64,000 nucleotides of DNA from Escherichia phage IME08. The notes beneath the pieces are model-generated. The model did no database searches and had not been told where the DNA came from. It saw nothing but the letters and a program-made list of their open reading frames with translations. Where the stretch lies: sequence record NC_014260.1. One strand, given 5' to 3'. How positions within the stretch are numbered: position 1 is the first letter of the stretch; every line of letters starts with the position of its first letter. The translations under genes were made by a program, and so were the position numbers. Shown in pieces: positions 24,823-26,124 of the stretch.

Positions 24823-24863
24823 TTTATTCTCCAGTTTGTTTTCGTATTATTTGGTACAGGTCT

Positions 24864-24892
24864 ATAATAACACAACCTGTACCAAAGTAAAC
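24864..24892 (-). promoter_or_regulatory. T4-type early promoter (GTTTAC-N17-TATTAT) with flanking inverted repeat
   Basis: Plus-strand ATAATA 24864-24869 and GTAAAC 24887-24892; GGTACAGG/CCTGTACC inverted repeat brackets the -10. Confidence 0.55.
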
Positions 24893-24896
24893 TGTT

Positions 24897-25265
24897 TTAT
24901 GCAACTTTAATCCAATTATCTAAATTTAATTCACCTTTGGCTTTCATTTTTTCAATCAAATCATCGGCAGTGGTGCGACCATTTTGATACCATGTAACAT
25001 CTTCAGAATAACCGGTTTCTTCATCTTCATAGGTCTTACAACGAATCTTACCGGTTATGATAGTTTTCAGTTCGTAGGTATCACCGGTAAAAAAGTTTGT
25101 TACCATAATTTTCCAAGAGAAGTCATCAGAAGGACCTTCCGGAGTCATGCAACCTACAAATTCAAATTGTTCTTTGTACAAGCGCCATTGCATTTCTTTA
25201 GTTTCGATTGCTTTGTAACCGTCGTGGTCTTTACATTTGATATATGAGTTAAGATTGATTTTCAT
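24897..25265 (-). CDS. hypothetical protein
   Basis: 122-aa ORF preceded by a near-identical promoter cassette. Confidence 0.5.
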   Translation of the reverse strand: MKINLNSYIKCKDHDGYKAIETKEMQWRLYKEQFEFVGCMTPEGPSDDFSWKIMVTNFFTGDTYELKTIITGKIRCKTYEDEETGYSEDVTWYQNGRTTADDLIEKMKAKGELNLDNWIKVA

Positions 25266-25306
25266 TTTATTCTCCAGTTTGTTTTTGTATTATTTGGTAC
25301 ATGTCT

Positions 25307-25335
25307 ATAGTATCATGCCTACCGGAGATGTACAC
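25307..25335 (-). promoter_or_regulatory. T4-type early promoter variant (GTGTAC-N17-TACTAT)
   Basis: Plus-strand ATAGTA 25307-25312 and GTACAC 25330-25335. Confidence 0.45.
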
Positions 25336-25363
25336 CCTTTTTTAAAGATTTAGAAACAAAAAT

Positions 25364-25381
25364 GGGACTCCGAAGAGTCCC
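25364..25381. terminator. hairpin GGGACTC-CGAA-GAGTCCC
   Basis: 7-bp stem directly upstream (minus sense) of promoter cassette and after small ORF stop. Confidence 0.6.
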
Positions 25382-25386
25382 ATAAC

Positions 25387-25548
25387 TTATGCCTGAGGCT
25401 TACCAAAGCAAGCAGCATCTGCACGCAATACTGCACGAGCACGAGCTTGAAGCTTATCAACTACCTGATTGATACGCTTGTTGGACGCACGCTTGTAACC
25501 AGCGCGTTTAGAGGTACCGTCAACTACTTTAACTTCTTTCTTGGCCAT
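25387..25548 (-). CDS. small basic protein, hypothetical
   Basis: 53 aa MAKKEVKVVDGTSKRAGYKRASNKRINQ…; weak RBS; not in ORF track. Confidence 0.3.
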   Translation of the reverse strand: MAKKEVKVVDGTSKRAGYKRASNKRINQVVDKLQARARAVLRADAACFGKPQA

Positions 25549-25875
25549 TTTAAATCTCTTAAATTAGAATGCAGGACTTATTGGCGTTGCCTGCGCAAGC
25601 CCTCAAGGGGAACATAGGTTTCGGATATTTAACGACAGGATAACCATAAACCTCGTCATCATACCAACCACGGCTTAGACAGATAACCTTTTTCTGACGC
25701 GTGATAGTACAAAATACATTCAAGAGGTACACCGTAAAACTGTCGGGGTCTTAAAACTATAATGATTCGCAAATCATTAATCAAACAGTTCGACGGCTCC
25801 TCGGATGATATTAAAGACAACATACAAGCAGGTATCATATTATAGTGGAGGTACCTGCCAACATCCACTTAAAAC

Positions 25876-26124
25876 TTACTTCAGGGTAATAATAAAATGA
25901 CGTACTGCTTTACGAGCTGCTGAAGCCAAAGGCTTAGCAAATTTCAGTTCATCTTTAGCTTCCAGTTCAGCAGCCAGAGTAGCCTGAGCAGGATTCAGAT
26001 GTTTGAAATAACGCAGGATTTCCAGTGCTTCGGCTTCAACATCAATAGATGCGCCGTAGTTTTCGTGACCGTTGTTCCAAGCGTTGCGTTGCAGTTCAAG
26101 AGCGTGATTCAGTTGTTTGTTCAT
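25876..26124 (-). CDS. rIII: rIII lysis-inhibition accessory protein
   Basis: 82 aa (T4 rIII is 82 aa), position between 31 and ligase cluster. Confidence 0.6.
   Translation of the reverse strand: MNKQLNHALELQRNAWNNGHENYGASIDVEAEALEILRYFKHLNPAQATLAAELEAKDELKFAKPLASAARKAVRHFIITLK

What the first reader, a model, noticed from the sequence alone, without database searches (positions are those of the whole stretch)
25387..25548. Unannotated 53-aa basic ORF between the ligase small-gene tail and rIII
MAKKEVKVVDGTSKRAGYKRASNKRINQVVDKLQARARAVLRADAACFGKPQA is Lys/Arg-rich and could be a nucleic-acid-binding peptide. It falls below the ORF-track length cutoff and has only a weak RBS.
Basis: seen in the sequence. 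Interest (0 to 1): 0.2.

Follow-up and report, generated by a model that had tools for sequence, protein, structure and literature searches.

The report
T4 gene 30.9 ortholog, small basic protein
The 53-codon reading frame is a real, conserved gene, the counterpart of phage T4's long-catalogued gene 30.9 of unknown function. It is ordinary, except that a conserved folded RNA leader, including a pseudoknot, sits in front of it.

Summary
The ORF exists as described: window 25387..25548, minus strand, ATG to TAA, 53 aa. Its length alone means little, but comparison with relatives shows a genuine gene. It is the ortholog of T4 gene 30.9 (PHROG 1427, E 4e-27). It is 100% identical to annotated proteins of Dhakavirus phages and has homologs in about 1000 T4-like phage records. 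It always lies between rIII and 30.8. Substitutions cluster at third codon positions (43 of 51 sites vary, against 23 and 19), with pN/pS 0.09-0.66. A canonical terminator follows 3 nt after the stop.

No function is known, and Pfam, NCBIfam, PADLOC and PDB searches gave nothing. The protein has a disordered basic arm with the near-invariant SKRAGYKRxSNxR motif, then one amphipathic helix. Nucleic-acid binding, probably RNA, is plausible but untested.

The more interesting result is upstream. The 327-nt rIII-30.9 spacer is built of conserved RNA structure modules. One is an H-type pseudoknot (25611..25663), found once in each of the 39 enterobacterial T4-like loci searched, with compensatory changes in both helices and no Rfam match. 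The ORF is already known. The leader is a candidate new cis-regulatory RNA.

The parts
25387..25548 (-). Coding sequence of the gene 30.9 ortholog (53 aa, 5.8 kDa, pI 10.8)
   Evidence: ORF. PHROG 1427 at E 4e-27. T4 gp30.9 alignment and synteny. Codon-position pattern and pN/pS below 1.
25556..25560 (-). Shine-Dalgarno-like AAGAG, 7 nt upstream of the ATG
   Evidence: Read from the sequence. Relatives have AAGAGA or GGAAGA at the same place.
25352..25383 (-). Intrinsic terminator: 9-bp GC-rich stem, UUCG loop, U tract. It starts 3 nt after the stop codon.
   Evidence: Scan hit. The same hairpin plus U tract, with covarying stems, is present in 40 of 41 distinct related loci.
25611..25663 (-). 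Module A: conserved H-type RNA pseudoknot in the 30.9 leader. Layout: S1 GACG(A)GG/CCUGUC, S2 UGGUU/AACC(U)A, then an A-rich 13-14 nt loop GUUAAAUAUCCGAA.
   Evidence: Covariance model hit of 66.2 bits, E 4e-12, with one hit in each of the 39 enterobacterial T4-like loci searched. Covariation in both helices.
25597..25610 (-). Module B: nearly invariant motif CCCCUUGAGGGCUU (small CCC/GGG hairpin)
   Evidence: Invariant GAGGGCUU core across nine genera. Occurs once in the 64-kb window. Variants are listed.
25571..25594 (-). Stem-loop next to module B (GCAGG...CCUGC). Its sequence differs between phage groups while the pairing is kept.
   Evidence: Read: GCAGG/CCUGC, GGGAGC/GCUCCC, GGGAAC/GUUCCC, GAACUGG/CCAGUUC, GGUGGAG/CUCCAC, GGCGA/UCGCC. 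Folds.
25724..25802 (-). Long imperfect hairpin, almost identical in T4 and Dhakavirus. It contains a sigma-70-like site TTGATT-17-TATAGT (25784..25756).
   Evidence: Part of the MFE fold. Near-invariant columns in the T4/Dhakavirus alignment, while the rIII coding end varies. Promoter-like hit.
25809..25874 (-). About 65-nt insertion specific to this phage. It carries the best sigma-70-like site of the region (TTGGCA-16-TATGAT, 25861..25834) and a weak second copy of module A (25824..25874).
   Evidence: Absent from the closest relative vB_EcoM_005 and from T4. No match in 50,697 phage records. Promoter scan. Covariance model 33.7 bits, E 6e-5.
25876..26124 (-). rIII (lysis-inhibition accessory protein, 82 aa), the upstream neighbour in every locus that has one
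   Evidence: ORF. Annotated rIII at the same position in nine related loci. Also upstream of a distant homolog.
25307..25335 (-). T4-early-type promoter-like site for the next unit (30.8): GTGTAC-17-TACTAT with an upstream TG
   Evidence: Read. Relatives have GTTTAC 20-45 nt after the terminator. Its identity as an early promoter is inferred from the known T4 early consensus, from my own knowledge.
24897..25265 (-). Gene 30.8 ortholog, the downstream neighbour
   Evidence: Pfam PF06019 Phage_30_8, E 2e-44.

Best explanation
This is the Dhakavirus ortholog of phage T4 gene 30.9, a genuine early gene for a 5.8-kDa basic protein.

Shown:
- It is the last gene before a strong intrinsic terminator, directly downstream of rIII.
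- It evolves under purifying selection at the protein level.
- It is preceded by a long leader made of conserved RNA structures, including a pseudoknot supported by covariation.

Inferred:
- The protein works by binding nucleic acid, more likely RNA than DNA.
- The disordered Lys/Arg arm, with the near-invariant SKRAGYKRxSNxR motif, would make the contacts.
- The following amphipathic helix (residues 23-48, a/d stripe I26-V30-L33-A37-V40-A44-C47) would serve for self-association or docking.
- How much protein is made would be set after transcription by the structured leader. That could act through mRNA stability or ribosome access. The protein may also feed back on its own leader.
For: Gene identity:
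- PHROG 1427 at E 4e-27.
- tblastn finds 999 phage records.
- The protein is 100% identical to annotated AZV00906.1.
- It aligns with T4 gp30.9.
- The order gp31-rIII-30.9-30.8 holds in nine genera. rIII also precedes a distant homolog.

Coding:
- Variable sites by codon position are 23, 19 and 43 of 51. All 36 pairwise pN/pS values are 0.09-0.66.
- The upstream in-frame ATG extensions are not conserved.

Expression:
- T4 30.9 RNA is classed as early (supplement of PMC9697503).
- A 2003 paper on in-vivo expression of rIII and 30.9 exists (cited in PMC9409239).

Signals:
- The terminator is and recurs in 40 of 41 distinct loci.
- Distant homologs are self-contained units of promoter, gene and terminator.

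Protein shape:
- AlphaFold gives residues 1-22 disordered and one helix at 23-48.
- pI is 10.8 and the helix is amphipathic.
- Invariant S13, R15, A16, Y18, K19, R20, S22 and N23 lie in the basic arm.

Leader:
- The pseudoknot model hits once in each of the 39 enterobacterial T4-like loci searched, always between rIII and 30.9 on the coding strand.
- 76.6% of cells are paired, against 39-50% when partners are slid. The covariation score is 0.40, against 0.13 or less.
- Helix S1 was not part of the search model, yet it shows UA19/AU13/GC1 and CG20/GC9/UA4 with no unpaired cell.
- The leader is more conserved between T4 and Dhakavirus than the adjacent rIII coding end.
Against: - Nothing here tests binding of any ligand.
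- No homolog has a known function or a solved structure.
- The structure model has low confidence (pLDDT 67) and shows only one helix.
- The T4 proteome study gave the protein no class, so accumulation of the protein is not documented in what I could read.
- Distant homologs keep the protein motif but lack the pseudoknot. The pseudoknot therefore cannot be the protein's primary target.
- The RNA modules change order and distance from the start codon between phages. In some phages they abut the rIII stop. They may serve rIII or the transcript as a whole rather than 30.9.
- In this window the hairpin that could hide the SD has only 3-4 weak pairs.
Confidence: 0.5

Rival explanations
1. The protein acts through protein-protein contacts rather than nucleic acid. 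The amphipathic helix would dock onto an acidic host or phage partner, for example a ribosomal, RNA polymerase or lysis-control protein, and the basic arm would add electrostatic affinity.
For: There is a single amphipathic helix with a hydrophobic stripe. Linkage to rIII is invariable in all loci that have rIII. RIII itself is reported to bind ribosomal protein S1 and the holin (PMC9409239). Many T4 early small proteins are known to work this way (my own knowledge).
Against: The most conserved residues lie in the basic arm, not on the helix face. No partner can be named from the data. Adjacency to rIII may only reflect the conserved gene order of this core region.
Confidence: 0.2
2. It is a small histone-like DNA-coating protein that binds double-stranded DNA non-specifically, acting on host nucleoid or phage DNA compaction.
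For: The Lys/Ala-rich N-terminal tail in most relatives (MAKQAKAKKAVEKK) resembles histone-H1-like tails. The pI is high.
Against: The Dhakavirus protein has lost five residues of that tail, and the tail is the least conserved part. The conserved part is a specific motif rather than bulk charge. The protein was not classed in the T4 proteome, which fits poorly with an abundant coating protein.
Confidence: 0.12
3. The conserved RNA modules have little to do with 30.9. They would be 3' elements of the rIII message, or a separate processed non-coding RNA, and 30.9 merely lies downstream.
For: In several phages the pseudoknot starts at or within 10 nt of the rIII stop codon, about 280-330 nt from the 30.9 start. 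Module order varies. Distant 30.9 homologs with their own promoter lack the modules. Relatives carry an extra 140-nt four-helix block in the same spacer.
Against: In T4, Dhakavirus and Mosigvirus the pseudoknot and module B lie within 60-110 nt of the 30.9 start. No terminator separates them from 30.9. The only terminator is after 30.9, so the modules and 30.9 share a transcript.
Confidence: 0.25
4. The ORF is not a functional protein gene. The frame would stay open by chance, or because the DNA or RNA sequence is conserved for another reason.
For: ORFs of this length are common by chance. There is no family annotation. The protein was not classed in the T4 proteome data.
Against: Third-position variation is about twice that of the first and second positions, and all pairwise pN/pS values are below 0.7. 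The frame is intact in about 50 loci, including distant phages at 55-65% identity. The start, SD and terminator are all conserved.
Confidence: 0.03

Closest known systems
Phage T4 gp30.9 (58 aa; UniProt P17310; PHROG 1427), a conserved hypothetical protein
   Same: Same family (E 4e-27 to the PHROG profile) and about 70% identity over residues 11-53. Same position between rIII and 30.8, same terminator, and the same leader modules A and B.
   Different: The protein here is five residues shorter at the Lys/Ala-rich N-terminus. The helix differs in several residues (DKLQARARAVLRADAACF against EKIMRRARAVLRDDASRF). This phage has an extra 65-nt insertion after rIII.
Autoregulatory leader of T4 gene 32: a pseudoknot at the 5' end of the leader nucleates binding of gp32, which then represses its own translation (my own knowledge)
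   Same: A T4-type phage message whose long 5' leader contains an H-type pseudoknot upstream of the ribosome-binding site, and whose product is a candidate nucleic-acid binder.
   Different: There is no sequence relation. Loop 3 here is long (13-14 nt) and A-rich. The tract between the pseudoknot and the start is structured, not an open A/U-rich run. Pseudoknot position varies from about 60 to 330 nt upstream. Feedback by gp30.9 is untested.
Arginine-rich-motif RNA-binding peptides, such as the N proteins of lambdoid phages (my own knowledge)
   Same: A short basic segment that is disordered when free, in a very small phage early protein, next to conserved RNA hairpins on its own transcript.
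   Different: No sequence similarity was found by any search. gp30.9 is mixed Lys/Arg with an invariant Tyr and Asn. No antitermination system is known in T4-type phages.
PeSL cassettes (promoter-early plus stem-loop) described in T4-type genomes by Arbiol et al. 2010 (my own knowledge; not re-read here)
   Same: The terminator hairpin directly followed by an early promoter downstream of 30.9. A near-repeat of the promoter and leader sits before 30.7.
   Different: This describes the boundary after the ORF. It does not describe the ORF or the pseudoknot-containing leader before it.

Membership tests
T4 gp30.9 family (PHROG 1427) | Significant full-length match to the family profile | tested here: met
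   phrog_1427 at E 4.3e-27, residues 1-53 on profile positions 16-68 of 75. T4 gp30.9 scores 2.3e-31.
T4 gp30.9 family (PHROG 1427) | Position between rIII and 30.8, on the same strand | tested here: met
   rIII is at 25876..26124 and 30.8 (PF06019) at 24897..25265. Nine related genera show the same order.
T4 gp30.9 family (PHROG 1427) | Core motif SKRAGYKRxSNxR(I/V)(N/D) followed by an RAR-containing helix, in a protein of about 50-90 aa | tested here: met
   S13, R15, A16, Y18, K19, R20, S22 and N23 are invariant in 24 sequences. The motif is kept in distant members P0045-P0056.
Protein-coding gene under selection | Excess of synonymous over non-synonymous change, and an intact frame in diverged relatives | tested here: met
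   Variable sites by codon position are 23, 19 and 43 of 51, with pN/pS 0.09-0.66. The frame is intact in all loci.
Bacterial ribosomal or other named small basic proteins | Match to any curated family model | tested here: not met
   No Pfam, NCBIfam or PADLOC hit at E of 1 or below for the window protein and T4 gp30.9; the distant members P0046, P0050, P0053 and P0056 were scanned against NCBIfam, and P0050 and P0053 also against PADLOC. The best PDB sequence hit is SlmA at E 0.17, which is chance level.
bZIP-like basic region plus zipper | Basic-region signature N-x2-AA-x2-(C/S)-R, followed by a Leu heptad zipper of at least 4 heptads | tested here: not met
   The signature is absent from the sequence. 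The hydrophobic stripe spans only about 3.5 heptads with Ala at two positions. Only the overall layout is similar.
Gene-32-type autoregulatory pseudoknot leader | H-type pseudoknot in the 5' leader supported by covariation | tested here: met
   both helices show compensatory changes. No shuffle out of 500 reached the observed score, and slid controls score far lower.
Gene-32-type autoregulatory pseudoknot leader | Unstructured A/U-rich tract linking the pseudoknot to the ribosome-binding site | tested here: not met
   The interval holds module B and a conserved stem-loop.
Gene-32-type autoregulatory pseudoknot leader | The gene product binds its own leader and represses translation | not testable with these tools
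   This needs binding and reporter assays.
Known RNA families (Rfam 15), including preQ1-I and other pseudoknot riboswitches | Covariance-model match | tested here: not met
   No hit in the leader at E of 10 or below in the window, or at E of 1 or below in eight related loci.
Intrinsic (rho-independent) terminator | GC-rich hairpin followed by a U tract directly after the gene | tested here: met
   9-bp stem with 5 GC pairs, UUCG loop, then UUUUUGUUUCU. Conserved with covarying stems in 40 of 41 distinct loci. Termination activity itself was not tested.

The most novel reading that the evidence does not exclude
The rIII-30.9 spacer of enterobacterial T4-like phages encodes undescribed structured RNA elements. 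They comprise a 53-nt H-type pseudoknot with an A-rich third loop, an invariant CCCYUYGAGGGCUU hairpin motif and, in many relatives, a 140-nt four-helix block. Together they would form a new cis-regulatory system, either an operator bound by the basic gp30.9 protein (autogenous control as in gene 32) or a ligand-sensing or processing element. That would give gp30.9 its first functional handle.
Probability: 0.3. Interest if true: 0.55.

Novelty: already known. Interest (0 to 1): 0.25.

Why it matters
The ORF matters little on its own. It is a catalogued T4-type gene whose identical product is already in GenBank, so the scan found a track-cutoff gap and not a new gene.

It would matter more for two reasons. 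First, gp30.9 is one of the many conserved T4 early proteins with no function, and it is kept from Escherichia to Pseudomonas phages. Second, the conserved structured leader gives a concrete way in. A small basic protein encoded behind a covarying pseudoknot is a directly testable candidate for an RNA-protein regulatory pair in the best-studied phage family.

Tried and rejected
Searches on the protein that found nothing:
- Pfam, NCBIfam and PADLOC scans.
- PDB sequence search with the family profile. Only SlmA came up, at E 0.17.
- A profile search of 1.84 billion representative proteins. It returned 16 clusters, all small phage proteins, plus one spurious low-complexity repeat protein, P0048. 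The family has no informative distant relatives.

Searches on the leader that found nothing:
- Rfam on the window and on eight loci.
- blastn of the leader against E. coli genomes, so there is no host mimicry at the sequence level.

Ideas considered and rejected:
- The MFE of the whole leader is not unusual for its composition (z = -0.59). The case for structure rests on covariation only.
- The conserved TATGAT before the pseudoknot is not a -10 element, because no -35 is conserved upstream.
- The modules are not a dispersed repeat. Each occurs only at this locus within the 64 kb.
- A short upstream ORF (MMTRF...) and the annotated N-terminal extensions (MYFSKMEDDK, or the 97-aa form P0042) are not real. 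Their frame and stops are not conserved.
- The pseudoknot is not a stop-codon read-through signal for rIII. Its distance from the rIII stop ranges from 4 to more than 100 nt.
- An alternative pairing GGGCUU/AAGUCC predicted by single-sequence folding is not kept in the Salmonella-phage type.

Not done or unproductive:
- A structure-library search was not run, because the model is a single low-confidence helix and any match would be meaningless.
- Literature searches for a function of 30.9 gave only genome tables and one citation of a 2003 expression study that I could not read.

Full report
**1. The observation**

The reading frame is present exactly as described. The protein is basic, with 14 Lys+Arg against 4 Asp+Glu, pI 10.8 and a mass of 5.8 kDa.

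An ORF of this size proves nothing by itself. The window holds 153 ATG ORFs of at least 53 aa, and composition-matched shuffles still give about 61. The question is therefore whether comparative evidence supports it, and it does.

**2. Identity**

The window is from a T4-type phage of the genus Dhakavirus, the Bp7/QL01/JS98 group. The best DNA matches are 99% identical.

- A tblastn search with the 53 residues finds 999 phage records.
- The identical protein is annotated in Escherichia phage vB_EcoM_005 as AZV00906.1.
- The T4 counterpart is gene 30.9, 58 aa, "conserved hypothetical protein".
- In phage LQ5 and Serratia phage PS2 the gene is explicitly labelled gp30.9.
- The protein matches PHROG 1427, a family of unknown function, at E 4e-27.

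The neighbours confirm orthology. They are dCMP deaminase, gp31 (Cpn10), rIII, the ORF, then 30.8 (PF06019) and 30.7 (PF06919). The same order holds in nine genera of enterobacterial T4-like phages. rIII also precedes a distant 88-aa homolog from a metagenome.

The family reaches Erwinia phage Cronus and Pseudomonas phage PspYZU05. It is nonetheless small. A profile search of 1.84 billion representative proteins returned 16 clusters. All are small basic phage proteins, apart from one spurious repeat protein.

**3. It is a protein-coding gene**

I built a codon alignment of nine diverged orthologs. Of 51 ungapped codons, 23 first positions, 19 second positions and 43 third positions vary. All 36 pairwise pN/pS ratios fall between 0.09 and 0.66.

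The frame is intact in about 50 loci. Some annotations use longer upstream starts (MYFSKMEDDK..., or a 97-aa form in T4). These are not conserved, because other phages have stops or frame changes there. MAK(K/Q) is therefore the true start.

The rival reading, that the frame is open by chance or for RNA reasons only, is rejected.

**4. Signals around the gene**

- Three nucleotides after the stop lies a textbook intrinsic terminator at 25383..25362: a 9-bp stem, a UUCG loop and a U tract.
- An equivalent hairpin with a U tract follows the gene in 40 of 41 distinct related loci. The stems differ in sequence but keep their pairing. A GTTTAC-type early promoter for the next unit follows in most loci.
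- The SD is a modest AAGAG, 7 nt from the ATG.
- T4 30.9 RNA was classed as early in a time-resolved omics study. The protein received no class there (supplement of PMC9697503).
- A 2003 paper on in-vivo expression of rIII and 30.9 is cited in PMC9409239, but I could not read it.
- Two distant homologs are compact units of their own. Each has a near-consensus sigma-70 promoter, a short leader, a strong SD, the gene and a terminator.

**5. The protein**

The alignment of 24 sequences shows that conservation peaks in the basic arm. Eight invariant residues (S13, R15, A16, Y18, K19, R20, S22, N23) lie there, and four more are M1, A37, R38 and V40. The Lys/Ala-rich N-terminus is variable and is five residues shorter here than in T4.

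AlphaFold, run with this alignment, predicts residues 1-22 as disordered and a single helix at 23-48, with mean pLDDT 67. The helix is amphipathic, with an a/d-type stripe I26-V30-L33-A37-V40-A44-C47.

No Pfam, NCBIfam, PADLOC or PDB relative exists.

A disordered basic arm with a specific motif, followed by an association helix, is the layout of many nucleic-acid-binding peptides. That is an inference from composition and shape, not a result. The bZIP signature is absent, and no ribosomal-protein model matches.

**6. The leader**

The 327 nt between rIII and the ORF (163-368 nt in relatives) is not filler.

Module A is a 53-nt element at window 25611..25663. It has interleaved complementarity typical of an H-type pseudoknot. 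In order, it reads: S1 5' strand, GUU, S2 5' strand, AUC, S1 3' strand, a conserved A-rich loop GUUAAAUAUCC(A/G)AAA, then S2 3' strand.

- I built a covariance model from 20 instances, using only S2 as its structure. It finds exactly one strong hit (41-69 bits) in each of the 39 enterobacterial T4-like loci searched. Every hit is on the coding strand between rIII and 30.9. The 64-kb window has no other hit apart from one weak second copy.
- On the resulting alignment, 76.6% of cells pair, against 39-50% when partners are slid by 1-3 columns. The covariation score is 0.40 against at most 0.13. No shuffle out of 500 reached the observed values.
- Helix S1 was not in the model, so its alignment is not fitted to it. 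Even so, it shows UA19/AU13/GC1 and CG20/GC9/UA4 at two pairs, with no unpaired sequence.
- The hand-made seed alignment gave the same picture.
- The usual caveat applies. Related sequences inflate shuffle tests, so the slid controls and the number of distinct pair types carry the argument.

Module B is a nearly invariant CCCYUYGAGGGCUU at 25597..25610, found once in the window. A stem-loop follows it, and its sequence changes between phage groups while the pairing is kept. The forms are GCAGG/CCUGC, GGGAGC/GCUCCC, GGGAAC/GUUCCC, GAACUGG/CCAGUUC, GGUGGAG/CUCCAC and GGCGA/UCGCC.

Further upstream, a long hairpin at about 25802..25724 is almost identical in T4 and Dhakavirus, although the adjacent rIII codons differ at many third positions. 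It contains a sigma-70-like TTGATT-17-TATAGT.

In the Klebsiella, Enterobacter and Salmonella phage groups, a UCUCC or ACUCC tract can pair with the GGAAGA SD. In this window the equivalent pairing has only 3-4 weak pairs.

Rfam has no match for any of this, and E. coli genomes contain nothing similar.

**7. What the leader does**

This cannot be settled here. The modules lie on the same transcript as 30.9, because the only terminator is after the gene. That fits post-transcriptional control of 30.9.

An operator for the basic gene product, as in the T4 gene 32 leader (my own knowledge), is attractive. Three facts caution against it.

- Module order and distance to the start vary. The pseudoknot is about 60 nt upstream in T4 and Dhakavirus and about 280-330 nt upstream in Klebsiella and Serratia phages.
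- In some phages the pseudoknot begins at the rIII stop codon.
- Distant homologs keep the protein motif without the pseudoknot.

The modules may therefore serve the rIII-30.9 message as a whole, through stability or processing, or they may be a separate RNA.

**8. Verdict**

It is wrong in calling the ORF unannotated in any wider sense.

As a gene it is already known and of low interest. The conserved pseudoknot-containing leader is the part worth following up. I found no description of it in Rfam or in the papers I could search. That is absence of evidence in a limited library, not proof of novelty.

Noticed in passing
window 25611..25663 (minus strand); also L002:1337-1390 (T4) and one site in every other enterobacterial T4-like locus: A conserved 53-nt H-type pseudoknot lies between rIII and 30.9. 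Both helices show compensatory changes and it has an A-rich third loop. There is no Rfam match.
   Followed up: yes
window 25571..25610 (minus strand): A nearly invariant motif CCCCUUGAGGGCUU is followed by a stem-loop. The stem sequence differs between phage groups but the pairing is kept in at least six sequence versions.
   Followed up: partly
window 25809..25874 (minus strand): A roughly 65-nt insertion sits directly after the rIII stop. It is absent from the closest relative and from T4, and it has no match in 50,697 phage records. It carries the best sigma-70-like site of the region (TTGGCA-16-TATGAT) and a weak second copy of the pseudoknot module.
   Followed up: partly
window 25724..25802 (minus strand): A long imperfect hairpin is almost base-for-base identical in T4 and Dhakavirus, although the neighbouring rIII codons have diverged. 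It contains an inner perfect hairpin AAUGAUU-UGCG-AAUCAUU and a promoter-like TTGATT-17-TATAGT.
   Followed up: partly
Related loci only, e.g. L003:~905-1045 and L010; not in the window: Many relatives, including some Dhakavirus, carry a roughly 140-nt GC-rich block in the same spacer. It folds into four helices, 11 of 39 predicted pairs show compensatory changes and almost none are broken. No Rfam match.
   Followed up: partly
window 25270..25352 and 24826..24896 (minus strand): Near-repeats of an early-promoter-plus-leader cassette (...GTACC AAATAATAC(A/G)AAAACAAACTGGAGAATAAAATG) precede both 30.8 and 30.7. The first follows the 30.9 terminator. This resembles the promoter-early/stem-loop cassettes described for T4-type genomes (from memory).
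   Followed up: no
L051:1-600 (metagenome contig): A distant 65-aa family member lies next to genes with weak pilin-type N_methyl hits instead of rIII. The family may therefore occur outside the usual T4-type context.
   Followed up: no
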